From the NCBI GenBank assembly GCA_013202715.1, contig JABMRF010000046.1, positions 1 through 57,310 on the forward strand: a DNA stretch of 57,310 nt, read 5' to 3'. This DNA comes from Candidatus Kuenenbacteria bacterium. GTDB lineage: Bacteria > Patescibacteriota > Patescibacteriia > UBA11705 > JABHMO01. The notes under the pieces were generated by a model. It saw nothing but the letters and a program-made list of their open reading frames with translations, was not told the DNA's origin and did not search any database. Shown piece by piece: positions 394-57,310 of the stretch. Each line of letters starts with the position of its first letter. Positions within the stretch are counted from its first letter, which is position 1. The position numbers were made by a program, and so were the translations under genes.

Positions 394-2480
<2,087 letters not shown>

Positions 2481-2490
<10 letters not shown>

Positions 2491-3359: not shown

Positions 3360-3408
3360 AGTAAATAAAAATTAAAAATCAAGAATTAAGAATTAAGAAT
3401 TAAGAACA

Positions 3409-5938: not shown

Positions 5939-5993
5939 ATATTTAAATGACAAATGCCAAATTAGAAATGACAATATAATGACCAATGATTAA

Positions 5994-8812: not shown

Positions 8813-8882
8813 ATTTATTTTTATAGTTACTTTCGACTTTCGACTTTTAACTTTTGACTTATATTATTATACCACATTTTTG

Positions 8883-9620: not shown

Positions 9621-9660
9621 ATTTGTTTAACTGTTCACGATCGTGGTAATTCCAATATTG

Positions 9661-9737
9661 TCGTGTTGCTGTATTGTTGTATTGCTGTATTGTTATATTG
9701 TTTAAACAGTGTAACAGTATAACAGTTTAACAGTTTC
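9661..9737. repeat. Inverted 8-mer array pair
   Basis: TGTATTGT units facing TAACAGT(A/T) units. 9686-9710 is the exact reverse complement of 19389-19413 (25 nt). Confidence 0.8.
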
Positions 9738-12063: not shown

Positions 12064-12162
12064 AGCAAGACCAGCGAGACGAGTAAAACAAGCAAGACAA
12101 GACCCCTTTAACCTCCGTTGGCTAGTCTCGCTAGTCTCGCTTGTCTAGCTAGTCTCGCTTGT
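12064..12162. repeat. Inverted 9-mer array pair
   Basis: (A)GCAAGAC/GCGAGAC units facing GCTAGTCTC units; the same unit occurs inside murI (13874-13913). Confidence 0.8.
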
Positions 12163-14180: not shown

Positions 14181-14347
14181 AAGAGGGCTCCATAGTCCTG
14201 TTTTGAACAAAGTGAAAAACAGGCTGTGGAGTCCCGTTTGGGAACATATAAAAAGAGAAGCAATGGAGCAACAAATGCTAGGAGAGGTGTCTTTAAATGA
14301 TCCCTTATTAGGCTCCACAGTGCTTCGCAACTATGGAGCCCCCTTTA
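14181..14347. repeat. REP/REPIN-like composite palindrome (copy A)
   Basis: AAGAGGGCTCCATAG-hairpin-CTGTGGAGTCCC ... GGCTCCACAG-TGCTTCGCAA-CTATGGAGCCCCCTTT. Related copies at 16177-16294 and 51761-51817. Confidence 0.8.
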
Positions 14348-16176: not shown

Positions 16177-16294
16177 AAAGAGGGCTCCATAGTCCTGCCT
16201 GAAGCGTAGCGAAAGGCAGGCTGTGGAGTCCAAAATGGGGTCTTTTAAATTCCCCCACCAGGGCTCCACAGTGCGTCGCAACTATGGAGCCCCC
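16177..16294. repeat. REP/REPIN-like composite palindrome (copy B)
   Basis: AAAGAGGGCTCCATAGTCCTG...CAGGCTGTGGAGTCC and GGGCTCCACAGTGCGTCGCAACTATGGAGCCCC, in the same orientation as copy A. Confidence 0.8.
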
Positions 16295-33937: not shown

Positions 33938-34005
33938 ATAATTTAAATGACAAATGCCAAATATCAAATGACAAACTTCCGTAATCAATTCATTGTTGCT
34001 GCTCT

Positions 34006-41563: not shown

Positions 41564-41577
41564 GTTTTAGGAATTCA

Positions 41578-41650
41578 AGCGAATTAAGTTAATTAAGAGA
41601 TTGAGCGAATTTTTAATTAACTCAATTCACTCAATTCGCTCAATTAACTT
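41578..41650. repeat. Inverted 9-mer array pair
   Basis: GAATTAAGT/ATTGAGCGA units facing AACTCAATT/CGCTCAATT units, upstream of comF. Confidence 0.7.
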
Positions 41651-41674
41651 TCCCTATCAGTTTAATCCGCGTCT

Positions 41675-45434: not shown

Positions 45435-45541
45435 AAAACTTCATAGTAATTTGGCTTCGCCGTAATTTAGTAATTAATAATGATTTCTCAATTACCTAAT
45501 TACAATCAATTACTATCAATTACCTAATTACCTAATTACGA

Positions 45542-46780
45542 TCAGTTGTTCAGTTGTTCGTTCAGCTTACTAAACATCTCGTATTCACTCAAACTTAAAC
45601 TATCCTTGTTTTCTCTTTGTCTTTTTTCTATTGTAGCTGTGATTGGTTTTTTTTCTCGAATCGCCTCGAGTGTCATGGCAATATATAATTTAAAAACAGA
45701 TGACTTTTTCCAGGCATTAATGCCCTCAAGTTTTTTTCCCAAAGATTGTCCAGCCAGCACTTGAATTTTTTCCATAATTTCTTCCATAATTTCTTTTTCA
45801 TCTTTTCCTAGAGTCCGCAAATCTTTTAGATTCATAAATTCCAACTCTTCAACCGGGCCAATTAATTTACGGTGATGTTTAATATTTTCCAGGCCAGGCT
45901 TAGCCTTTCCTTCCGGGACAAGGTTCAAAGTTGGCCTAACAACTTTTTGAAAAGGCACTTTTTCCACCTCTCTTTTAATTGGTTTGCTCCTAGCCGCAAC
46001 AGCAGCCAGTTTCGCGGTCGGAGTTTGTTTATTATTAATGACCGCAGGTGGAGGCGGTTCCAATCGGTGTTTAATGTCGATAACTTTTTTAACGGAAGTA
46101 TTTCCACCATCTCTTCTTTCTTTTTCCATCAGTTGAGCCTCTTGTTCCAAAAATGCAACAATTAATTCTGCTTTTTCTGAAGGTAACTCAAGGCCACCAC
46201 TTACTCTGGGAACGGTTAAAATATATTTCACTTCCTTTGGTTTTCTTATCCCACGAAAATATGTAACAAGTATATTAAAAAATCTATCTTTAATTTTCTG
46301 ATCACTAAACTCAATTTTTAATTTATTTATAACGTGATTAACTTTTTCCTCGACCAACTTCTTGTCTTGACCACGCCTCTGGTTCAATTCCGGATCATGA
46401 TCAATTTTTTCCAGTTCAATTTCTTCCCGCGGAACAAAAACTATTGGCTGGCTTGCCTCTGGTCTGGCTGTCGGTTTGAGCTGCTTAACGTGGTTAACTG
46501 GTTTAACTGGTTTATCTGGTTTAACTGGCTCAACTGCTTTAACTGTTTCAACTGGTTTAACTTGATTTCCGCTTTTGGCGGAAACTTTTTCAGCAACAGC
46601 TTTCTTTTTTGATTCAAAAGTAAAAACAGGACTTAATACCTTTTTTTGTGTTTCACCAACTTGTTTTTCAACGTTTTGCTCTTTTTCAATTTCTTTAATA
46701 TCAAAAAACTGGCCGTCTTTGTAATATTTCAACTGGCCGTCTTTGTCTTTGACTAACATGTAACCTTGGGTATTAACCAT
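45542..46780 (-). CDS. Hypothetical protein in the T4SS-like locus with VKP repeats
   Basis: 412-aa ORF; a 9-mer tandem array (about 46487-46563) encodes VKPVETVKAVEPVKPDKPVKPV. Confidence 0.65.
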   Translation of the reverse strand: MVNTQGYMLVKDKDGQLKYYKDGQFFDIKEIEKEQNVEKQVGETQKKVLSPVFTFESKKKAVAEKVSAKSGNQVKPVETVKAVEPVKPDKPVKPVNHVKQLKPTARPEASQPIVFVPREEIELEKIDHDPELNQRRGQDKKLVEEKVNHVINKLKIEFSDQKIKDRFFNILVTYFRGIRKPKEVKYILTVPRVSGGLELPSEKAELIVAFLEQEAQLMEKERRDGGNTSVKKVIDIKHRLEPPPPAVINNKQTPTAKLAAVAARSKPIKREVEKVPFQKVVRPTLNLVPEGKAKPGLENIKHHRKLIGPVEELEFMNLKDLRTLGKDEKEIMEEIMEKIQVLAGQSLGKKLEGINAWKKSSVFKLYIAMTLEAIREKKPITATIEKRQRENKDSLSLSEYEMFSKLNEQLNN

Positions 46781-48328: not shown

Positions 48329-50947
48329 TTATGGAGCAAATGCTTTCATATCATCGGCAGTTTGTCCTTTTAGAGCATTAATAATCTTATCGTTAGCTGC
48401 CATTCTGCCTAATTTTTCTTTGGCTACATCCTGCTTTTTCTTTTCTACTGCGTAAGTTGGAGTTGCCGGAGCTGGAAGAGACGCCCTTACAGTTGTCATT
48501 AAATGTTGAGTAACTTTATCAATATTATCCTCGCTATGCTCTTCGCCTGCATCTGCCATTTTGGACATCTGGGAAACTGAAGCGTGTTCTGATACAGCCT
48601 GAATAGCCCGGGGACTACTTAGCTCTCGTTTGCCCAAATCTGCTCCTTTTATCTTTGGAATTGCCGTATCCAAACCGGATGAATCTGAGCTCACTCCGTC
48701 AACCGGAGATGATGAGAATACATCCCTTTCAACAACTCTTCCTCTTGAATCACGAGCGCCAAATCCTTCTTCAAAAGAGTCTGTAATATTTCCGGCTATA
48801 GCGCGAAATTCACTAGCATCCTTCTGTGTTTTAGCCAATGAAGCTGTAGCAAGAGTAACTTTTTGAGCAGCTTGAGTTCTTTCATTTGTTGATGCAGTTG
48901 TCGGCAAAGCTCTGACCGCTCTTTGCGCACTCAGAACCCCGGCTCGGCCTTTAGCAAGATATTCTTCGTGATCTAACATTTTACCGCCTGCAAACTTTTT
49001 ATTTCCTGTTTTGACTGCCTCTTTGTATTCAAGCCCTCTGTTGCTGGCTCTCTCCATTGTAGCTTGGTATTGTTTCGGTCCAGTTACCTCATAAGCTTGT
49101 TCTAAGAAATCCTCATTTTTGTATGCTTCAGGTTCTTGAGCCGCAAGATCAAATTCACCTCGATCAGCAGCCCCACGAAAAGCCTTGGCTTCTTTTTTAT
49201 CAGTCAAATCATAAGCAGCATATGCTTGTCTTTTTTGCATAGTTTCTTTATGAGCCTTGAGTCCTTCTTTATCTCCTTTAAACAATTCACGATGCTGCCT
49301 TGCTTGATCAGCAACGGTAGAAACCACATTACCATTAGCATCTTTAACATCCTTGTAACCTTTTTTTGCAGCTACCATTGCTGCGGCCTTTCGCATATGC
49401 TTGCTATATCTTTTACTACCGGCAACTTTTTGCGCTTCTTCCGGTGTAGTGACGTCCATACCCTCCAAAACTTTGGCGGCTTCCTTTTGTTTATTATCTA
49501 AACGAGCTTGTTTCATTTGTTTTTTTGCAGCAAGATCAGCTCTACCAGCAGTTCCATGTTTCATTTGGTATGCGCCACCTTCTCGTGCACCAGAAACCAT
49601 AGCACTTCCTGCTGCTTTAATTCCTTTACCATCTTTCACAGCTTTTCCTGCTGCTGCAAGTCCGCCAGCAGCGCCACCAATAACCACTGCGGGAGCTTTT
49701 TTAATTGCAGCCTTTGCGGAATGCCTGGCCTCACGAAAACGCTCATTTTGCCAACCTTTTTTAATCCCGCCAGGAAGAGCCTTGACACCAGAGCGCGCAG
49801 CGCTATAACCCGTTCCATGAGAAATAGCTTTCTTGGCAAATGATGATGCTTGGCCGGATTTCTTTGACGCGGCAGATCCCATCGCTCCGCCCAATTCACC
49901 GGCTATTGATAAACTGGCCATAAGCATCGCGAGAGCAATCGCAAACTGCGCTAAGTTATCCACATAGGAGATATTAGAAACTACACCACCTTCTGATTTA
50001 TTTTCAATTTCTGTATGTTTATCAGGATACATTCCGGCAGGATCGGACATGATTAATAAACTCAGCCACAGGAAAAAAGCCATTACCGGACCAATCACTA
50101 CTGCCGAGGTAAATTCTCCCCACCATTTATCTTTCATTTTCTTCCCCATACCATCAGGGAATACATTCATCGCAAAAGCCACTGGAGACAGGACAACCAA
50201 AATCCAGAGAGTTACGATTCTCATTACAAATAATCCCAGTACCATAACCGTCACAAAAATAGCAATAACAAGTAACATTGCCGCTAAAAACAGGGCGATA
50301 AAAATACTAGTATGGTCAACAGGATTCTGTATATCTGATGATTTCTCGTTCAACTGCATTAATTTATTAATGCCAAGTCCCTGAATCAAATTTGCACCAG
50401 CAGTTGCCTGGTAGCCATTTACAAAGGTCATCATCACAACCTGCGCGAAATCAATCATTAGGCCACAAATCAATTTACTAAAATTTACCAAAACTGCCGC
50501 AATAATCAATTTGGGCAGCATTTTCTTTACAGGATATTTTTCTACATTTAAAATTTGAGCAAAAGCTATTACCAGAAGCATGACCACAAAAAGCATGTTA
50601 CAAACATCACGAACCAGGACCCAGCCCTTTGTTACGGCTTTTGAGACTACAAAATCATTGTAGGAACTAATAATCACAATCAAAGCAAAAATCTTCATCA
50701 AAACCCAGCCTAAACCAGCTACAATAAAAAACAATAATCGATTCAAAAATTGTACAATTGTTGTGGTCATGTCAGGATCACTTGCGAAGGCAAAATTACC
50801 AACAACAAAAATTCCGACTAGTAAGGTACCTAATAAAACTACTTGGAATTTTCTATTTTTTATGGAAAACAAAACCTTAGCATGCTTAATAACTTTTCTC
50901 AGCATACTCGTAAAAATAAGCCCAATTTGCTTCAATTGACTTTTCAT
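48329..50947 (-). CDS. TrbL/VirB6-like polytopic membrane protein with long charged C-terminal tail
   Basis: GW.LVRD.CNM.F, P.LII.A.LVNFS, RI..LW.L..LSP.AF, multiple TM helices, then an Ala/Lys-rich tail. Confidence 0.75.
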   Translation of the reverse strand: MKSQLKQIGLIFTSMLRKVIKHAKVLFSIKNRKFQVVLLGTLLVGIFVVGNFAFASDPDMTTTIVQFLNRLLFFIVAGLGWVLMKIFALIVIISSYNDFVVSKAVTKGWVLVRDVCNMLFVVMLLVIAFAQILNVEKYPVKKMLPKLIIAAVLVNFSKLICGLMIDFAQVVMMTFVNGYQATAGANLIQGLGINKLMQLNEKSSDIQNPVDHTSIFIALFLAAMLLVIAIFVTVMVLGLFVMRIVTLWILVVLSPVAFAMNVFPDGMGKKMKDKWWGEFTSAVVIGPVMAFFLWLSLLIMSDPAGMYPDKHTEIENKSEGGVVSNISYVDNLAQFAIALAMLMASLSIAGELGGAMGSAASKKSGQASSFAKKAISHGTGYSAARSGVKALPGGIKKGWQNERFREARHSAKAAIKKAPAVVIGGAAGGLAAAGKAVKDGKGIKAAGSAMVSGAREGGAYQMKHGTAGRADLAAKKQMKQARLDNKQKEAAKVLEGMDVTTPEEAQKVAGSKRYSKHMRKAAAMVAAKKGYKDVKDANGNVVSTVADQARQHRELFKGDKEGLKAHKETMQKRQAYAAYDLTDKKEAKAFRGAADRGEFDLAAQEPEAYKNEDFLEQAYEVTGPKQYQATMERASNRGLEYKEAVKTGNKKFAGGKMLDHEEYLAKGRAGVLSAQRAVRALPTTASTNERTQAAQKVTLATASLAKTQKDASEFRAIAGNITDSFEEGFGARDSRGRVVERDVFSSSPVDGVSSDSSGLDTAIPKIKGADLGKRELSSPRAIQAVSEHASVSQMSKMADAGEEHSEDNIDKVTQHLMTTVRASLPAPATPTYAVEKKKQDVAKEKLGRMAANDKIINALKGQTADDMKAFAP

Positions 50948-51077
50948 TTAGTCTGTTTTAATTCAAATTTATTATACCATATTAATTTGGTTAAGGGTAA
51001 ATTTTATGCACAGCTGGGCTTCTAGTCTAGAGTCTAGAGTCAAAAGTCAAGAGTCATAACTCCAAAAGAGGTGCGAC

Positions 51078-51110
51078 AAAAAAAGAAGGGTTATATCCCC
51101 TTCTTTTTTT
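51078..51110. terminator. Hairpin terminator overlapping the four-helix gene stop
   Basis: A7GAAGGG-ttatat-CCCCTTCT7. Confidence 0.6.
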
Positions 51111-51483
51111 GATTCTTTTTCTGTAATGTTTTAACACTAGCTCCAAGCAACCTTGATATTTCTATCACTTCGCATAAAAGAGCTTTTAATTTTTGTTGAT
51201 CCCCTTTATTCATATCACGAAGCAAAACTAGCCAAAATTGAGTTTCATTTGCAGATTTCAAGCAGTGCCTTAAATAATTCGCAAAATCCCTATCTGAACC
51301 GCCTGCAATTGCCTCAATATAATTTGCTCCAATACTTGTTCCACTTCTTATGAATTGTTTTTTGATAACCTGACAAACTACATCTTTCCAGTCATAATTT
51401 TCGCTAAATTTTAATAACTCTAAAATAAAATTGTATATTCTTTGCTTAAACTCTTTACTAAAATCCTTGTTACACTTTCTCAT
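51091..51483 (-). CDS. Four-helix-bundle protein (TIGR02436 / 23S rRNA-IVP-like), copy A
   Basis: QFIRSGTSIGANYIEA..G.S.RDF......LKSANET.FWL.LL motif. Confidence 0.9.
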   Translation of the reverse strand: MRKCNKDFSKEFKQRIYNFILELLKFSENYDWKDVVCQVIKKQFIRSGTSIGANYIEAIAGGSDRDFANYLRHCLKSANETQFWLVLLRDMNKGDQQKLKALLCEVIEISRLLGASVKTLQKKNQKKKGI

Positions 51484-51501
51484 ATTGTTATATCATTATT
51501 T

Positions 51502-51900
51502 CTATTCAATGAGTTTCAACTCTAGACTTTTGACTCTAGACTCTTGACTTAACCGTATATAACCATTGATAAACTTGTTAATCCTTTATGCTTTTGACAA
51601 TATTTCAAGCTGTCAATAATAATTTTAAAATATTTTGGTTTTGTAAAAATATCAATCCACTCGATGATTGTCAATGTTAAAAAGTGAGTTACATTTTCGT
51701 TTTCTTTATGGATTCTGAGTACTGGCATATAATCTTCCCGTTTTTAAGTATCCTCATTGTGGACTCCATAGCTATTCCCCGCCTTACGGACGATGAATAG
51801 ACTATGGAGCCCCCTTTAATTAAACTATTCAATGAGTTTCAACTCTAGACTTTTGACTCTTGACTTTTGACTTAACCGTGGATAGCCATTGATAAACTTG
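51502..51900. repeat. 76-bp direct repeat pair (51502-51577 and 51825-51900)
   Basis: Manual alignment gives 71/76 identity. It duplicates the 3' end of the lamin-tail gene. Confidence 0.9.
51761..51817. repeat. REP-like palindrome (copy C)
   Basis: GGACTCCATAG-CTATTC...GAATAG-ACTATGGAGCCCCCTTT. Confidence 0.75.
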
Positions 51901-54063
51901 GCTTTTCTTCTGCCACAATAAGTACAGATTACACAGCATCAAAACCACGAATCCGCTAAGCAACAACCAAAGCGTGTTTTTCTTTTGTGAATTAGTACCA
52001 ACCTTACTATCACTGTTTTGAGCCGAGCCAACAACCGGTTTTGCTTGCAAGGTCAAGTTAACCATATCAGCCTCGCTTCTTGGCATAAGCCGATATTCAT
52101 CATCGTATTGACCAACGATCCCGGTGATTATGATTTGATTGCCAACATCAAAAAGCTTTGAACTGATCTTTGTGCCACGCTTTAAATAAACGACAAACTC
52201 ACCAAATTCATCCGCAAAAATTAGTCTACTTGAATCCTTTTCAACCAGTTCTCCTTGAACCTGAACAAAAACGCCTTCTTTTTCCTCATTAAGCCCAAGC
52301 GAATTAATTGTGGGCGGCGTTGCCACCTCTTGATTTTCCAGAATCGTTAAATCAGCTTTTTCTTTAATTAAGATTCTTTTTTCATTCCGACTTTCAGATA
52401 ATGTTCCATTAACCTCCACCAAGTCGCCAACTTTCAATTCAGGCCAGTCAGCTTTTGAAAAATAGATCTGGATTCCATTTAGATAAATAAGGCTCTTGCT
52501 AAATACTTCCGGTAAAACAACCACCTGCCCTTTAACTTTAACCTTTGACCTTAACGGTAAACTTCGAACTTCTGCTAAGCTATCCACCTCCATTGTGTCA
52601 CCCTGAGAGAGGAGGGACGACGAACCGAAGGGTGTTGTTTTTTTACTGCTCACTACCAAACCCGCCGTCTGCATAGCCGGCTTTTTATTTTCCGCACCAG
52701 GTGTTGACTCCAATGTTTCCAGCCAACCGCCCTCAAACCAGGAATTGGAATAATCTTCTTTTGGGTTTTGATAATCAACTGAACTTATAATCTGACCATT
52801 TGGATCAAGAAGATTGATCTGGTCCGATGAATTGTTTAGGACCAATCCAGTTTCTTCTTTATTAAAAACCAAATAATCATTTACTTTAATTACAATCTGA
52901 TCTTCCAACTTGAACGGTTTACTTCCGCCTTCTGCGTCATCCAGGCTCCAGCCCAACAAGTTAACGTCAGTTTCTCCGGAATTATACAACTCAATCCATT
53001 CAGCATTATCACTTCCCAGCGGATCAGCCAAAAATTCATTGATAATAATTTTATCTGAAAATTGATATACTGGTTGGACTTCTTCCACTTCTTCCACTTG
53101 CTTGTCCTCGGTAGTTTCAACGAAGGAGGATTCAACCTCTTCCACTTTTTCAACCTGCGTGTCCTCCGCAGTTTCAACGAAGGAGGGTTCAACTTCCTCA
53201 ACCTGCTTTGCCTTGAGCTTGCCTCTCGGCCATGAGCTCGAGGCCGAATGGTCGAAAGGCTCCTCGGTTAATTGAAAAAAATTAATCTGACTTGGGGTTG
53301 CAACTTCTGTTTCTTTGTATTCATCGTCAAATAAACCAATTGAATTGCCTGATTCACCGGCCGGAACATTTGAGTCTTCCCATTCGCCGTAACTAACTTT
53401 ATCAATTTGGCTTCCATAAGAATCCTGCAAAATTACACAATCGCCACCATTATTCAAACTACTTTTGTCAAAAACAAGATAACCAAGAGGTCCGATGGAA
53501 CCGGTTAATTGTGTTTTTTTGCCGGCGCCTTCGATCAAATTCCAGCCGGACAAATCAATCGCCTCTGCAGTCGTATTATACAGTTCCACCCATTCCGGAT
53601 CGCCAGAAATCGGAGCGGCCATTATTTCATTAATTCGAATTTGCTTTGGGCCAATGATCGGTTGAAAAGTATCCAACTGATCTTCAACTACATTCGCTTG
53701 CTCAGTTGAACTGTTTTCTTCAATTAAATTATCTTCTTCAAGTGGTTCACTTTCCTCAGTTGAATTATTTTCTTCAACCACCTCCGTTTCCTCAGCTAGA
53801 TTATTTTCTTCTATGGAATCATCTTCACTCGCTTCCGGATCCTCAATCAACTCCGGAGTTTCAACTGGCTGTTCATCAACATTTTCCAATAAATTTTTTA
53901 ACCACGATTGACATGAATCATCTGCGCAGCCAATAACAATGTACTGGTAAACCTGACTGTCAGAAATTGTATTGTAAACCATCGCCGCCTTTGCCTGGCG
54001 AAAAACCACATCAAAAGGAATGGTCAACAGACTGATCAATAATATTCCAAGTAAATATTTCAT
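51829..54063 (-). CDS. Surface protein with two lamin-tail domains, OB folds and C-terminal TM
   Basis: Signal peptide; INEIM..P....EWVELYN and INEFL.DP...EWIELYN; OB-like V.V.G.V...; TM helix near the C-terminus. Confidence 0.8.
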   Translation of the reverse strand: MKYLLGILLISLLTIPFDVVFRQAKAAMVYNTISDSQVYQYIVIGCADDSCQSWLKNLLENVDEQPVETPELIEDPEASEDDSIEENNLAEETEVVEENNSTEESEPLEEDNLIEENSSTEQANVVEDQLDTFQPIIGPKQIRINEIMAAPISGDPEWVELYNTTAEAIDLSGWNLIEGAGKKTQLTGSIGPLGYLVFDKSSLNNGGDCVILQDSYGSQIDKVSYGEWEDSNVPAGESGNSIGLFDDEYKETEVATPSQINFFQLTEEPFDHSASSSWPRGKLKAKQVEEVEPSFVETAEDTQVEKVEEVESSFVETTEDKQVEEVEEVQPVYQFSDKIIINEFLADPLGSDNAEWIELYNSGETDVNLLGWSLDDAEGGSKPFKLEDQIVIKVNDYLVFNKEETGLVLNNSSDQINLLDPNGQIISSVDYQNPKEDYSNSWFEGGWLETLESTPGAENKKPAMQTAGLVVSSKKTTPFGSSSLLSQGDTMEVDSLAEVRSLPLRSKVKVKGQVVVLPEVFSKSLIYLNGIQIYFSKADWPELKVGDLVEVNGTLSESRNEKRILIKEKADLTILENQEVATPPTINSLGLNEEKEGVFVQVQGELVEKDSSRLIFADEFGEFVVYLKRGTKISSKLFDVGNQIIITGIVGQYDDEYRLMPRSEADMVNLTLQAKPVVGSAQNSDSKVGTNSQKKNTLWLLLSGFVVLMLCNLYLLWQKKSQVYQWLSTVKSKVKSQKSRVETH

Positions 54064-54164
54064 AATTTTTTTTTGTTGGGGCCAATGGGTCGTTTGCGTT
54101 TAACAAATAATCCATCAGCCCCATATTAATTAGTTAGATAACTCTGCTCTCGCGATGAGCAGAG

Positions 54165-54196
54165 AAAACCCGTGCGTCGCCAAGGCTATGCACGGG
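54165..54196 (-). terminator. Hairpin/terminator (REP-like loop) downstream of the RAYT homolog
   Basis: CCCGTGC...GCACGGG followed by TTTT on the minus strand; a second hairpin CTCTGCTC/GAGCAGAG at 54142-54164. Confidence 0.6.
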
Positions 54197-54205
54197 TAAA
54201 CTAAA

Positions 54206-54919
54206 CTAGGCTATTTGTAATGTTTGTTTAGCCGGAACACTTGCATCTAAACGTAACTTTAAAGTGTCAATATCCTGAAGATCTTCAGATAAATAAAGAT
54301 ATGGATATTTTTCAACTGTTTCAACCAATTTCCAACGTTCAGAAAGCGGTGTACCCATAATCCGATCTGATTTTTCCTGTATTGCTTTATCATCATTAAT
54401 TGGCAAGGTGTATGTTTTTGGAGTCCAAACTTTATAGCGTTTGTTTTCTTCAAAATTTTTAGCCTGCGCTTCAAATGTCCACAATATTTTCTGCGGAGTT
54501 GAACGCATAACTCGTTCATTTCCTTTGAACAATTCAAATATTTCATAAGCGCCGTCTTTAATTTCAGCACGCAAATTTTTCATAATTTCAATTGCCACCT
54601 GACCCTTTACTTCAGCCAGGATTTTCCCAGGATTATCCTGATTTTCAGGAAGCTTAAACAGCCAGAGAAAAAAGTTTGGCATTACCACATAAGCTAAGTT
54701 CTTAATGTCCATTTTTAATTCAGCCAATTTAATCGCATTAGCCACCAAGTCCATGTATTCTTTGGTTACAAAAACATTTTTGCGGCCGATAATTTCACCA
54801 TAGTGAAAGTAAGTACCGCCGGCCTGTTTAAAAGGCTTGTCAAACTTCTTTTTTCCTTTTGTTTTTTCCTCTTTTTGACCACCGTCATTGCCAGTGGTCT
54901 GGTTTTTTTCTTTTGTCAT
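54206..54919 (-). CDS. RAYT/IS200-type Y1 transposase homolog with degenerate active site
   Basis: GGTYF, AYVVMPN, VW...Y...I.D...I..K....P....LV....YPY match the RAYT layout. The HUH positions read F/L and the catalytic Tyr position reads R. Confidence 0.72.
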   Translation of the reverse strand: MTKEKNQTTGNDGGQKEEKTKGKKKFDKPFKQAGGTYFHYGEIIGRKNVFVTKEYMDLVANAIKLAELKMDIKNLAYVVMPNFFLWLFKLPENQDNPGKILAEVKGQVAIEIMKNLRAEIKDGAYEIFELFKGNERVMRSTPQKILWTFEAQAKNFEENKRYKVWTPKTYTLPINDDKAIQEKSDRIMGTPLSERWKLVETVEKYPYLYLSEDLQDIDTLKLRLDASVPAKQTLQIA

Positions 54920-54988
54920 AGATTTTTTGTTAATAATTAGATATAGCCCTAGTTAGTTTATAGTTAATATGTAAAAGGTAAAAGTAGC

Positions 54989-55360
54989 TTATTTCTTCTT
55001 CTCTCGTAATGACTTTACAATTGATCCAAAGATCCGCGCAATCTCTTCAACCTCCAGCAACAAAGCATCCAATTCCTCCAAATCTCCTAATTCAGCCTCT
55101 TTTAAAAGCAATAGCCAAAATTGAGATTCATTTGCAGATTTCAAAGAATGATTGTTAAAATTCGCAAAATCCTTCCTTGAAGAGCCAGCGATTGCTTCAA
55201 AATAATTCGCGCCTATACTTGTTATGCTTTTCACCAGCTGAAACCGAACAACCCGCGCTAGTGGATTTTTCCAATCCAAACATTCACAAAATTTTACAAC
55301 TCTTAAAATCAGACAAAAAAGCCTTGCTTTAAACTTTTTACTAAATTCATTATTGTTCAT
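54989..55360 (-). CDS. Four-helix-bundle protein (TIGR02436 / 23S rRNA-IVP-like), copy B
   Basis: QLVKSITSIGANYFEA...SSRKDF......LKSANESQFWL.LL motif. Confidence 0.9.
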   Translation of the reverse strand: MNNNEFSKKFKARLFCLILRVVKFCECLDWKNPLARVVRFQLVKSITSIGANYFEAIAGSSRKDFANFNNHSLKSANESQFWLLLLKEAELGDLEELDALLLEVEEIARIFGSIVKSLREKKK

Positions 55361-55648
55361 AATATTACATTACCTTTTGTTTTTTTACTTTTAACTTTTA
55401 CATTTTAACTTTTACCTATTTCTATTATCTCAACCAGAACAATCCCCCTCAACCAAATCCTGACGACCCACCTCGTCAAGATTTCACCCAAATTTATCAA
55501 GGTAATTTTTTTAAACAAAAAAAGTTGACGACCTAGGTCGACAACTTTTATATGACTGTGGATAACTCCTATTAACGCAAAATCGCAAAATATGCAAAGA
55601 CGCAAAAAACTCTTAAAAATTTTCTACTACTATTTCCTTCACTTCAAG

Positions 55649-57250
55649 CTATTCAAGAGCCTCTCCCTTAGTATAGTCCGTGTAGAAAGCTTCAGGCAAC
55701 GACTTTACAAGACTGCCCCAATCATCGCCAAAAAGTTCTTTTGCCTTAGATTCACTTTTCAACCAACGGATAACGTGATTATCTTCAACTTTATAAACCT
55801 TGGCAATAGTTGGAGTTTTCATTAATGTTCCGGTTTTGAACGGGACATTATCACCAAATGTATAATCCTCTAATGAGTTTACGGTTTCAACAAAGGAAAA
55901 ATCATTTCCAAAATAACTTTCCCAAACTGCTTGTGTCGGATAAGGATGAAGAAGATTGTTTGTATCTATAAAATAAACCGCAGTTTTATCAGCCAACTTC
56001 AGCCAAGTTCCATTTGTATAATCAACGGTTGCGGCGGGTGAGGTAACTGCTACAAAATGAACTGTGAATTGCGCACCAACGTTCTGTGAATCTGAAGTAA
56101 CTTGATATACAACGTCCTGAGCCGTTGAACTTGAAATTTCAAAAGTCTGCTCACCATTGTCACCGCTTCCTTTTGAACTTACAACCACAAGCCCTTCGTC
56201 TCTGACTTCATTTAAATAAACAATCTGACTTGGTAAAACATTATTCTGTGTATCAAAAGTTTTTACTGTTACCGTGATCTTACTCGAACCGTCAGCATTA
56301 ACGGTTAGATTATCAACTGACACAGATGAATTTGTCGCTGAAAATTCTCCGGATATCGCCACGGTAATTGTAATCGGTCCAGAATTTGAAACCTGACCAA
56401 CCCAATCCCGAGACTGAGTTTCAATAAAATATGTTCCATTCTCAATACCTGTCCAATCATACTGCCAAGTCGCATAATTTTGAGTCAAAATTTCTACATC
56501 CTCCCAGTCAACTGTTTCTCCTTCTTTATATATTTTTATTTTAATGTATTCAGCTGATGACTTTCCCTGATCTCTTGACTTGCCGGTTATTGTGTATGAA
56601 TTTGTGCCAATAGTTTGGCCATCTTCTAAATTATCGAATATCACAACCGGCCCGGCCTTGTCTCCACTATAATAACTAATTGTTTGATTGGCAGCATTGG
56701 TAAATTCAAGATCAGTCGGACCGTCACTCTCTGATGCCACGAAAACTCCGGCATCGCCAATATCAAAAGCGCCATCCAAATCATTATCAATAAGTCTTGG
56801 CACCTGCAATTGAACCGTATAATTCACATTTGTTGCGGGCGCTGTCTCCCACATTTCTGCGCTGACAAACAGACGCAAGCCGTCAACAGGAATCAGCTGA
56901 CTTAGATCGTCCCAATACCAACTATTAGTGGGGCTGTAATAAGTACCGGCGCCAAGGTCTGTGTCAACTTGCCAGCCCTGAAAACCGACTTCACCGGCAT
57001 CGGCCCATAGACGCATAGCTTGAATGCCATGAGTATAAATCGCATTGCCTTGATTTTTTACAGTTACGGCAGTCAAGGTGTCTTCGACTCCGTCATTATC
57101 AGGAACAACAAAATCCAAAGCTAATTTGTCCCACTGACCGATATACCATGTATCAATCGGAATTTGAGTAAAAGCAAAATCAGAATTTTGGGATGCTACT
57201 GCAGGAAGAGCGAAGAATAAGATTAAGAGGAAGATTAGTGTTTTTTTCAT
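55649..57250 (-). CDS. Secreted protein with Ig-like domains and a duplicated C-terminal surface domain
   Basis: Signal peptide; Ig-like segments (YTITG.S.D; ADG.S.IT.TV...D..N); two C-terminal G..LK......VY.I repeats. Confidence 0.75.
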   Translation of the reverse strand: MKKTLIFLLILFFALPAVASQNSDFAFTQIPIDTWYIGQWDKLALDFVVPDNDGVEDTLTAVTVKNQGNAIYTHGIQAMRLWADAGEVGFQGWQVDTDLGAGTYYSPTNSWYWDDLSQLIPVDGLRLFVSAEMWETAPATNVNYTVQLQVPRLIDNDLDGAFDIGDAGVFVASESDGPTDLEFTNAANQTISYYSGDKAGPVVIFDNLEDGQTIGTNSYTITGKSRDQGKSSAEYIKIKIYKEGETVDWEDVEILTQNYATWQYDWTGIENGTYFIETQSRDWVGQVSNSGPITITVAISGEFSATNSSVSVDNLTVNADGSSKITVTVKTFDTQNNVLPSQIVYLNEVRDEGLVVVSSKGSGDNGEQTFEISSSTAQDVVYQVTSDSQNVGAQFTVHFVAVTSPAATVDYTNGTWLKLADKTAVYFIDTNNLLHPYPTQAVWESYFGNDFSFVETVNSLEDYTFGDNVPFKTGTLMKTPTIAKVYKVEDNHVIRWLKSESKAKELFGDDWGSLVKSLPEAFYTDYTKGEALE

Positions 57251-57310
57251 AACTGCAAACGCAAAAACGCAAAAGACGCAAAATCGCGAAAAAAAATTCC
57301 GATATTACAC

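What the first reader, a model, noticed from the sequence alone, without database searches (positions are those of the whole stretch)
51029..55403. Four-helix-bundle genes packaged between inverted heptamer-array arms: candidate mRNA intervening-sequence or mobile cassette
Copy A (51091-51483) is enclosed by a 26-bp inverted repeat with 25/26 matches (51029-51054 / 51519-51544, units AGTCTAG and AGTCAAA). Copy B (54989-55360) is enclosed by a 17-bp inverted repeat with 16/17 matches built from a different heptamer (54969-54985 / 55387-55403, GTAAAAG-type). In the transcript each pair would form a long stem that loops out exactly the ORF. Established: this protein family was first found in 23S rRNA intervening sequences, which RNase III excises from long terminal stems, and it is structurally related to DGR bAvd. 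Inference: here the same loop-out design is used in mRNA/intergenic context, as an excisable RNA module or as a DNA cassette inserting into pre-existing arrays.
Basis: partly seen in the sequence, partly recalled or inferred. Interest (0 to 1): 0.85.

Follow-up and report, generated by a model that had tools for sequence, protein, structure and literature searches.

The report
Four-helix-bundle gene cassettes with heptamer arms
Two small genes of the family first found inside ribosomal-RNA "intervening sequences" each sit here between ordinary genes, enclosed by mirror-image runs of 7-base repeats; these gene-plus-arms packages behave as discrete, relocatable units and have gene-less hairpin copies in the same genome, but how they move and whether the RNA is cut out remain untested.

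Summary
Genes A (51091-51483) and B (54989-55360), both minus strand, are TIGR02436/PF05635 proteins. Their inverted arms are 25/26 and 16/17 as reported and extend to 39 nt (87%) and 33 nt (85%). Both beat all 1000 shuffles and rank 1 and 2 of 52 window genes.

In 80 related metagenome loci, 48/81 four-helix-bundle (4HB) genes have such arms against 6/210 non-adjacent control ORFs.

The architecture matches the ORF-bearing 23S rRNA intervening sequence (IVS) of Coxiella, but outside rRNA. Arms plus ORF behave as one unit:
- Cassettes 77-81% identical lie in unrelated contexts, and homology ends at the outer arm edges.
- The closest syntenic relative lacks both cassettes.
- Each arm type also occurs as gene-less hairpins in this genome. 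One, at 2414-2482, matches an arm of A at 30/31.
- A third armed cassette lies on the same contig.

The neighbouring RAYT-like genes are not the mobility enzyme. RNA excision could not be tested because no RNA data exist, and mismatches show no G·U bias.

"Insertion into pre-existing arrays" is less favoured than "arms belong to the element". This is a new variant of a known kind. It has been seen many times in this scan but was not found in the papers searched.

The parts
51511..51549 (-). 5' arm of cassette A (sense strand AGTCAAG AGTCTAG AGTCAAA AGTCTAG AGTTGAAACTC). It holds a -35-like TTGAAA.
51091..51483 (-). Four-helix-bundle gene A, 130 aa
   Evidence: TIGR02436 4e-21, PF05635 2.5e-16. 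AF2 pLDDT 92.5 with four helices. Best fold matches 2rld, 2gsc and Avd 4dwl.
51077..51111 (.). Bidirectional intrinsic-terminator-like hairpin overlapping the end of gene A, inside the arms
   Evidence: 14-pair stem followed by a T run
51024..51062 (-). 3' arm of cassette A
   Evidence: It is 30/31 identical to 2414-2444.
51834..51872 (-). Extra copy of the 5' arm of A. It lies in the 76-nt direct repeat 51825-51900 / 51502-51577 and forms the last codons of the LTD (lamin tail domain) gene.
   Evidence: D3 at 93%, I2
55386..55418 (-). 5' arm of cassette B (sense strand GTAAAAG TTAAAAT GTAAAAG TTAAAAG). A promoter-like site lies just outside it at 55452-55424.
54989..55360 (-). Four-helix-bundle gene B, 123 aa, 53% identical to A
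   Evidence: TIGR02436 8e-20; tblastn
54954..54986 (-). 3' arm of cassette B, starting 2 nt after the stop codon. Similarity to the relative L043 resumes just outside it.
2414..2482 (-). Gene-less hairpin with A-type arms that fills the spacer between an EamA-family gene and ligA. It has the same polarity as cassette A.
   Evidence: (-28 kcal/mol, z = -4)

Best explanation
Each gene is the single ORF of a cassette of about 0.5 kb. The cassette's ends are imperfect inverted arrays of 7-nt units, A-rich (AAAAGTN-like) on the sense 5' side. This is the build of ORF-bearing 23S rRNA intervening sequences, but here it is lodged between protein-coding genes.

Shown here:
- Arms plus ORF form one heritable DNA unit that turns up in unrelated genomic contexts.
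- The cassettes are absent from the syntenic sites of the nearest available relative.
- The protein is under strong purifying selection.
- The unit is nearly always co-oriented with, and tightly wedged behind, the upstream gene.
- In this genome each arm type also exists as gene-less hairpins.

Inferred:
- The gene-less hairpins are ORF-less derivatives of the cassette (MITE-like, i.e. like miniature inverted-repeat elements).
- In read-through transcripts the arms pair and loop out the ORF. In about half of the relatives this would also sequester the start codon.
- The insert could then be cut out or bypassed as in rRNA IVSs (RNase III), which would make it tolerable inside operons.
- The Avd-like oligomer may read the periodic arms.

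The DNA-level mobility mechanism is unknown. It is not the neighbouring RAYT genes.
For: Enrichment:
- The two genes rank 1 and 2 of 52 window genes.
- 48/81 4HB genes against 6/210 non-adjacent control ORFs have flank IR of at least 14, p = 2e-26.
- A cassette's own arms pair better than arms taken from different cassettes (57% vs 14.5% at score 14 or more).

The cassette is one unit:
- L071/L107 and L074/L097 have ORFs 78-81% identical in nt and no tblastx similarity in the flanks.
- Their homology block runs from the 5' arm to the 3' arm and stops there.
- Downstream-arm similarity rises with ORF identity in unrelated contexts (60% vs 9% at score 16 or more).
- Arms of related cassettes pair across cassettes as well as with their own partner (14.1 vs 14.2), against 10.4 for random pairs.
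- The 5' arm reaches or overlaps the start codon in 24/50 cassettes.

Other support:
- Function: dN/dS is 0.05-0.12.
- Placement: 61/63 cassettes are co-oriented with the upstream ORF against an 81% baseline (p = 0.001). Median gaps are 43 and 55 nt.
- Relative L043 keeps the order RAYT-like, LTD, TrbL but has no 4HB at either site.
- Gene-less hairpins: 2414-2482 (30/31 identical arm). At least three more A-type and at least one B-type appear in contigs at the genome's own depth in 3-4 samples.
- A third armed cassette lies on the same contig.
- Folds pair the arms.
- The known analogue is described in PMC4990558.
Against: - No movement, empty allele or junction was seen at these two sites within the population. 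All contigs of four samples carry the filled form, and the short-loop contigs have different flanks.
- No target-site duplication and no catalytic protein were found.
- No RNA data exist.
- G·U (66) and A·C (60) mismatches are equal, so nothing points to selection on the sense RNA stem.
- Cassette A has a terminator between the ORF and the 3' arm, so its arms may rarely be on one transcript.
- Over all 82 related pairs the 5' arm is not significantly more alike than in unrelated cassettes. Arms turn over fast, and the 'unit' evidence rests mainly on the 3' arm and on a few clear pairs.
- Short-period arrays fill 19 of 36 spacers of this genome, so arrays also exist independently of 4HB genes.
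- The relative used for the 'empty' sites is distant (41-53% aa identity).
Confidence: 0.6

Rival explanations
1. The hairpin is the primary element and the gene is cargo. On this view palindromic heptamer-array hairpins are an independent, REP-like dispersed repeat family. Small genes (4HB, and also GxxExxY/PDDEXK_3 and GIY-YIG) get inserted into, or home to, their apical loops.
For: - Gene-less hairpins with the same arms as A and B exist in the same genome.
- The ORF segment of A lies exactly where the 12-nt loop of 2414-2482 lies, and similarity extends to the inner TGGAG motif.
- Of 30 genomes from many phyla that hold the exact 17-mer of arm A, most show heptamer hairpins and only 1 has a 4HB gene beside it.
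- A PDDEXK_3 gene between gatC and gatA on the same contig has the same design with other units.
- In the relative, a GIY-YIG gene with its own repeats occupies the slot of cassette B.
Against: - Arm type follows ORF relatedness across unrelated contexts.
- In about half of the cassettes the start codon and first codons are part of the arm array, so ORF and arm are interleaved.
- A, B and C in one genome each have their own arm type.
Confidence: 0.25
2. The arrangement is ordinary gene furniture and nothing is mobile. The A-rich array upstream and the T-rich array downstream would be common expression signals of this AT-rich genome (leader and terminator). Their complementarity would be a by-product of composition.
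For: - Arrays of period 6-9 occur in 19/36 spacers and are 14 times denser than in coding DNA.
- Arms taken from different cassettes reach IR of 14 or more in 14.5% of pairs.
- The 5' arms are 57% A.
Against: - Arms of A match 25/26 with mixed units, not plain A/T runs.
- Both beat 1000 shuffles, and nearly all 7-nt block shuffles (1 and 7 of 1000 reach the observed score).
- Only 6/210 control ORFs show such flanks.
- A cassette's own arms pair better than arms from different cassettes.
- Cassettes occur in unrelated contexts with homology ending at the arms.
- Nostoc plasmid copies have GC-containing arms (CAATTCG repeated about 5 times, 36 nt at 97%).
Confidence: 0.05
3. The neighbouring RAYT-type (HUH/Y1) transposases mobilise the cassettes, as RAYTs do for REP/REPIN sequences.
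For: A RAYT-like gene (54206-54919) lies next to B and a RAYT N-terminal fragment (51549-51728) lies next to A. A full Y1_Tnp gene lies next to the empty hairpin region (L124:12073-12669).
Against: - The gene next to B has MPNFF in place of the HUH motif. It is a conserved syntenic gene (53% identical, same MPNFF) in relative L043, which has no 4HB.
- The fragment next to A stops matching RAYTs at codon 50.
- Only 1 of 80 4HB loci has any RAYT homologue within 5 kb.
Confidence: 0.03

Closest known systems
ORF-bearing intervening sequences (IVS) of 23S rRNA (Coxiella burnetii helix 45, Leptospira; S23p ORF) - PMC4990558
   Same: The ORF belongs to the same protein family (PF05635). It lies in the loop of a long terminal inverted-repeat stem, and tandem heptamers sit in the 5' arm just upstream of the start codon. 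The element is about 0.43-0.5 kb. The IVS was proposed long ago to be a mobile element.
   Different: The cassettes here are not in rRNA. They sit between protein-coding genes, with no Rfam hit in 50000-57310. The protein is under purifying selection here, whereas it is decaying in Coxiella. RNase III excision is shown for the IVS and untested here. Gene-less copies with identical arms are dispersed in the same genome.
REP/REPIN elements with RAYT genes
   Same: A single small gene is bracketed by inverted copies of a short dispersed repeat. Many gene-less palindromic copies lie in intergenic spacers of the same genome.
   Different: The enclosed protein is a non-catalytic four-helix bundle, not an HUH/Y1 transposase. 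The arms are tandem heptamer arrays, not a single REP palindrome. RAYT co-occurrence was tested and not found.
DGR accessory protein Avd (Bordetella phage; PDB 4dwl, 8ub7)
   Same: Same fold (TM 0.67-0.80). Avd is a pentamer that binds a structured RNA together with the reverse transcriptase.
   Different: There is no reverse transcriptase and no template/variable repeat nearby. The Avd-specific model NF033474 does not match A or B.
Bacterial heptameric intergenic repeats (cyanobacterial heptamer arrays; GGGNATC repeats of Xanthomonas and Nostoc, PMC4692102)
   Same: These are 7-nt tandem arrays of about 4 units, concentrated between co-directional ORFs within about 50 nt of starts and stops.
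   Different: Those reports treat single arrays and G-quadruplexes. They do not describe inverted pairs enclosing a 4HB gene.

Membership tests
TIGR02436 / PF05635 four-helix-bundle (23S rRNA IVS protein) family | Profile score above the curated cutoff | tested here: met
   A scores 75.2 bits and B 71.1 bits (cutoff 24). PF05635 scores 60.2 and 50.2 (cutoff 33.8)..
TIGR02436 / PF05635 four-helix-bundle (23S rRNA IVS protein) family | Four-helix-bundle fold like 2rld and 2gsc | tested here: met
   AF2 pLDDT 92.5 with four helices. Foldseek 2rld TM 0.74-0.87 and 2gsc TM 0.82-0.84. Profile against PDB 2rld gives 5.5e-21.
TIGR02436 / PF05635 four-helix-bundle (23S rRNA IVS protein) family | Homo-pentameric assembly | not tested
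   Only a monomer was modelled. PDB entries 2rld and 2gsc list five chains each.
ORF-bearing 23S rRNA intervening sequence | Inserted in a 23S rRNA helix (25 or 45) | tested here: not met
   Both cassettes lie between protein-coding genes. No rRNA or other Rfam match in 50000-57310.
ORF-bearing 23S rRNA intervening sequence | Terminal inverted repeats that form a long stem enclosing a PF05635 ORF, with tandem heptamers in the arm | tested here: met
   Compared with PMC4990558.
ORF-bearing 23S rRNA intervening sequence | Excision from the transcript by RNase III | not testable with these tools
   No RNA runs hold the stretch.
REP/RAYT (REPIN) system | The enclosed or associated gene is an HUH/Y1 transposase with intact motifs | tested here: not met
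   The enclosed genes are 4HB. The neighbour has MPNFF and is a conserved syntenic gene. RAYT lies near only 1/80 cassettes.
DGR (Avd + RT + TR/VR) | Avd-specific profile match and an adjacent reverse transcriptase | tested here: not met
   NF033474 is not matched by A or B at E of 0.01 or below. No RT domain is among the neighbours scanned.
IS/MITE-type transposon | Terminal inverted repeats plus a transposase and a target-site duplication | tested here: inconclusive
   Inverted ends and gene-less derivatives are present. No transposase is present and no target-site duplication is recognisable at the arm edges.

The most novel reading that the evidence does not exclude
PF05635 four-helix-bundle genes with their inverted heptamer arrays are the autonomous form of a transposase-less mobile-element class. 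On this reading:
- The gene-less heptamer hairpins dispersed in the same genome (and perhaps many 'orphan' heptamer arrays of bacteria) are its non-autonomous derivatives.
- The Avd-like oligomer is the sequence-specific reader of the periodic arms.
- ORF-bearing rRNA intervening sequences are simply the copies that landed in rRNA.
- The same hairpin vehicle would also carry GxxExxY and GIY-YIG nuclease genes.
Probability: 0.3. Interest if true: 0.9.

Novelty: new variant of a known kind. Interest (0 to 1): 0.68.

Why it matters
The 23S rRNA intervening sequences and their "S23p" ORFs have been unexplained for about 30 years. So have the abundant heptamer repeats of bacterial genomes and the function of the non-DGR relatives of Avd.

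This locus shows all three in one object outside rRNA. It also adds a within-genome pairing of gene-bearing and gene-less copies that share near-identical arms. That pairing is the pattern expected of an autonomous/non-autonomous element pair.

If the protein proves to bind its own arms, or the arms prove to direct RNA excision, this would define a widespread element class with no canonical recombinase. It would also give a testable role to a very large protein family of unknown function. Cultured carriers with perfect arms, such as the Nostoc punctiforme plasmids, make the test practical.

Tried and rejected
I used the window, 10 kb more of the same contig and Logan contigs instead.

2. RAYT as the cassette's enzyme. 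Rejected.

3. Population-level empty alleles at the two sites. None were seen in four DNA runs. The short-loop joints belong to other loci.

4. RNA evidence. No RNA runs hold the window or L045.

5. Sense-strand RNA selection through a G·U excess. Not found (66 vs 60).

6. Cassette-specific compensatory evolution of arms among related cassettes. Not found (own 14.2 vs cross 14.1).

7. General conservation of the 5' arm above the family background. Not significant.

8. Same-arm copies near other cassettes. Too little flank was available to judge (3/27 loci).

9. Filled/empty pairs among the 80 loci. None were found, as expected, because all loci were selected for having the gene.

10. The exact 17-mer of arm A across genomes. 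The 30 hits are no more than chance predicts (about 70 expected), so the count itself means nothing. Only their contexts, which are heptamer arrays, are informative.

11. Known RNA families. None matched.
Full report
**Observation**

The region was read directly. Gene A (51091-51483, minus, 130 aa) and gene B (54989-55360, minus, 123 aa) are both TIGR02436 'four helix bundle protein' (75.2 and 71.1 bits, cutoff 24) and PF05635. They are 53% identical to each other.

The repeat finder extends them to 39 nt at 87% (51024-51062 / 51511-51549) and 33 nt at 85% (54954-54986 / 55386-55418).

The arms are arrays of 7-nt units. A uses AGTCTAG, AGTCAAA and AGTCAAG. B uses GTAAAAG and TTAAAAG.

The flank-IR scores (25 and 19) exceed all 1000 composition-preserving shuffles, whose maxima are 15 and 14. 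Among 52 genes of the window the two 4HB genes rank first and second, with every other gene at 12 or below. The predicted minimum-energy and centroid RNA folds of both cassettes pair the two arms into a terminal stem that encloses the ORF.

**The protein**

An AlphaFold model built on an alignment of 25 relatives has pLDDT 92.5 and four long helices. Its best structural matches are:
- BT_0352 of the 'S23 ribosomal protein family' (2rld);
- Xcc0516 (2gsc);
- Avd of the Bordetella phage DGR (4dwl, and the DGR ribonucleoprotein 8ub7), at TM 0.67-0.87.

The profile hits 2rld at 5.5e-21. The Avd-specific NCBIfam model does not match, and no reverse transcriptase is nearby.

**Is the arm association general?**

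I fetched 80 metagenome loci encoding relatives that are 42-61% identical, almost all from candidate-phyla-type contigs. I scored every ORF of at least 80 aa for an inverted repeat between its two 150-nt flanks.
- 48 of 81 4HB genes reach a score of 14 or more.
- Only 6 of 210 ORFs that do not adjoin a 4HB gene reach it (odds ratio 49, p = 2e-26).
- One high-scoring 'control' turned out to be a 4HB gene of another subfamily.

Arms show a consistent polarity. The 5' arm on the sense strand is 57% A, with units such as AAAAGTC, AAAAGTT, AAAATGA and AAAGCGA. A, B and a third copy in this genome follow the same polarity.

Part of the signal is family-wide. The 5' arm of one cassette pairs with the 3' arm of a random other cassette at score 14 or more in 14.5% of trials. 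Own pairs reach that score in 57%.

Cassettes are wedged tightly. The median gap is 43 nt to the upstream ORF and 55 nt to the downstream ORF. They are co-oriented with the upstream ORF in 61 of 63 cases, against 81% for control neighbours (p = 0.001). In 24 of 50 armed cassettes the 5' arm reaches or overlaps the start codon.

**Is it a unit that relocates?**

Several pairs of cassettes with 77-81% nucleotide identity in the ORF lie in contexts with no tblastx similarity over several kb. These are L071/L107, L074/L097, L046/L052 and L117/L122.
- In L071/L107 and L074/L097 the homology block begins in the 5' arm and ends at the outer edge of the 3' arm.
- In the other two pairs the arms are related but have different unit content.

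Over all pairs in unrelated contexts, downstream-arm similarity rises with ORF identity: 60% reach a score of 16 or more at 75% or higher ORF identity, against 9% for unrelated ORFs. Arms of related cassettes pair with each other's partner as well as with their own (14.1 vs 14.2), against 10.4 for random pairs.

By a global measure only the 3' arm region is significantly more alike (66% vs 60.5%, p = 2e-6). The 5' arm is not. Arms therefore turn over quickly.

Other cassettes are stably inherited at orthologous sites whose flanks are only 65-85% identical (L047/L087, L072/L109, L051/L056).

The ORF is under strong purifying selection. pN is 0.07-0.10 against pS of 0.63-0.78, and dN/dS is about 0.05-0.12 where it can be measured.

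**This locus compared with a relative**

The database holds no close relative. The best TrbL-like homologue is 39-41% identical.

One relative, GCA_043797615.1 (locus L043), keeps the gene order: RAYT-like, LTD (lamin tail domain), TrbL-like, two more genes, PrgI-like, TraC-like, TraG.
- Its LTD-to-TrbL spacer has a plain terminator and the conserved TGGTATAAT promoter, but no 4HB gene and no heptamer arms.
- Upstream of its RAYT-like gene sits a GIY-YIG gene with its own repeats in place of cassette B.
- Sequence similarity to the window resumes just outside B's 3' arm.

Both cassettes are thus additions to a conserved backbone, although the comparison is distant.

**Gene-less copies in the same genome**

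At 2414-2482 the 70-nt spacer between an EamA-family gene and ligA is filled by a hairpin with a 12-nt loop, made of A-type units.
- Its left arm is 30/31 identical to the 3' arm of cassette A, 49 kb away.
- The similarity continues into the inner TGGAG motif.
- The polarity relative to transcription is the same.

I laid the assembled contigs of four DNA runs on the region. These runs appear to include samples behind assemblies of this same contig, so they are not independent of the assembly. No contig skips a cassette at its own site.

The contigs did reveal other loci with the same arms and short loops:
- A-type loops GGTAAAAT, ATAGTCTGTAGTTAA and GTCGCCAAATCAGGGATCCAAGCCAAA;
- B-type loop CTTAAGCGCCATTTTCTA.

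Each of these lies at the depth of this genome in three or four samples. So each of the two cassettes has ORF-less counterparts with the same arms.

An A-type array is also translated in frame in the RadA linker (27847-27877).

Ten kb further along the same contig lies a third 4HB cassette, L124:21341-21733. It is 39% identical to A over 76 aligned residues and has its own arm units (GCAAAG/TAAAG, 66 nt at 73%). It fills the gap between a holin-like gene and queH. A PDDEXK_3 gene wedged between gatC and gatA on that contig has the same design with GTAGATC-type arms.

**Wider context**

Short-period arrays are a general feature of this genome's spacers: 19 of 36 spacers of at least 30 nt have one, a density 14 times that of coding DNA. 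The units differ from spacer to spacer, and several arrays are palindromic.

The exact 17-mer of arm A occurs in 30 genomes of many phyla. The count is no more than chance predicts, but nearly all hits lie in AGTCnnn heptamer hairpins, and only one is next to a 4HB gene.

In cultured Nostoc punctiforme PCC 73102, both plasmid-borne 4HB genes have clean heptamer arms: CAATTCG repeated about 5 times (36 nt, 97%), and GGAGGTC-type (44 nt, 86%).

**RAYT genes**

- The 237-aa gene next to B matches the REP-associated tyrosine transposase model below its cutoff. It reads MPNFF where HUH should be. It is 53% identical to a syntenic gene with the same MPNFF in L043, so it is a conserved resident gene.
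- The 59-aa ORF next to A is the N-terminus of a normal HUH RAYT family. The match ends at codon 50, exactly where the 76-nt direct repeat (51502-51577 / 51825-51900) begins.
- Only 1 of 80 4HB loci has a RAYT within 5 kb.

RAYTs are therefore not the cassette's enzyme.

**RNA or DNA?**

No RNA run holds the window or a related locus.

Mismatches in 50 arm pairs are 66 G·U-compatible against 60 A·C, so there is no sign of selection on the sense RNA stem.

Cassette A has a promoter-like site (TTGAAA-N16-AATGAT) at the inner edge of its 5' arm. It also has a strong terminator-like hairpin between the ORF and the 3' arm, so it looks like an autonomous transcription unit. B has a promoter-like site just outside its 5' arm and no internal terminator. 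Most relatives have no room for either signal. No Rfam family matches.

**Comparison with what is known**

The Coxiella burnetii IVS has these features (PMC4990558):
- a 28-bp terminal stem;
- an S23p (PF05635) ORF in the loop;
- three tandem heptamers (GACAGAT) before the start codon, variable in number between strains;
- RNase III cleavage within the stem.

Heptameric intergenic arrays near ORF ends are described for Xanthomonas and Nostoc (PMC4692102). I found no paper that describes PF05635 genes between inverted heptamer arrays outside rRNA.

Earlier notes of this scan report the same design in many genomes. I treated them as leads and repeated the key tests myself.

**Verdict**

The best reading is an IVS-type, 4HB-encoding cassette whose arms belong to the element. 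It has ORF-less hairpin relatives in the same genome.

DNA-level relocation is supported by comparative evidence but was not seen in action. The RNA loop-out and excision step is inferred by analogy and remains untested. The enzyme is unknown.

Noticed in passing
whole window (e.g. 3366-3406, 8829-8860, 9656-9736, 12121-12159, 31976-32010, 41575-41665, 45472-45559): Tandem arrays of period 6-9 fill 19 of 36 intergenic spacers of at least 30 nt (5.4 per kb against 0.38 per kb in coding DNA). Almost every spacer has a different unit, and several arrays are palindromic hairpins.
   Followed up: partly
51502-51577 and 51825-51900: A 76-nt direct repeat (93%) brackets 247 nt that hold a REP-like hairpin and the first 50 codons of an HUH-type RAYT. 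One copy forms the 3' end of the LTD gene, which reads through the heptamer array as ...KSKVKSQKSRVETH. The other copy supplies the 5' arm of cassette A and truncates the RAYT.
   Followed up: partly
54206-54919: A RAYT-like protein with MPNFF in place of the HUH motif is conserved (53% identity, same MPNFF) at the same position upstream of the LTD/T4SS-like cluster in relative L043. It looks like a domesticated, non-catalytic RAYT.
   Followed up: partly
L124:21341-21733 (same 84-kb contig, about 9 kb beyond window position 1): A third 4HB gene (130 aa, 39% identical to A over 76 aligned residues) lies between a holin-like gene and queH. It is enclosed by 66-nt inverted arrays of GCAAAG/TAAAG units that fill both spacers completely.
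   Followed up: yes
L124:16404-16796: A PDDEXK_3 (GxxExxY-type) gene is wedged between gatC and the amidase gene (gatA) and flanked by inverted GTAGATC-type arrays. This is the same gene-in-hairpin design with a different cargo family.
   Followed up: partly
27847-27877: An A-type AGTCAAA array is translated in frame (EESKVNSQKSKVVE) in the linker after the zinc finger of the RadA-like gene.
   Followed up: no
31984-32001 and about 33950-33967: A perfect 18-nt inverted match of CATTTGN heptamer arrays lies 1.9 kb apart. It brackets two ORFs and the two GIY-YIG/tRNA-Ser units. The same unit recurs at 5945-5974.
   Followed up: no
L043:240-1030: In the relative, the slot that holds cassette B in the window is occupied by a 97-aa GIY-YIG gene flanked by its own repeated units (…GCAATCTTGAATGATT… and GCAAATAAA-type). 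This suggests a shared hot spot for small selfish genes.
   Followed up: no
L049:2316-2687 vs L052:5001-5372: The two contigs are 100% identical from far upstream through the 5' arm and the first 75 nt or so of the 4HB ORF. They are then about 85% identical to the end of the 3' arm and unrelated beyond it. This is either recombination between paralogous cassettes or an assembly chimera.
   Followed up: partly
L127:1458-1912 and L128:1413-1982 (Nostoc punctiforme PCC 73102 plasmids): Both plasmid-borne 4HB genes of a cultured model cyanobacterium have clean inverted heptamer arms (CAATTCG repeated about 5 times, 36 nt at 97%; GGAGGTC-type, 44 nt at 86%). One lies beside Tn7-like tnsA and xisH/xisI.
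   Followed up: partly
51768-51815, 14181-14347, 16177-16294: A separate GC-rich palindrome family (GGGCTCCATAG...CTATGGAGCCCCC) is seen at these three sites. It is probably the REP partner of the HUH RAYTs and is unrelated to the heptamer arms.
   Followed up: no
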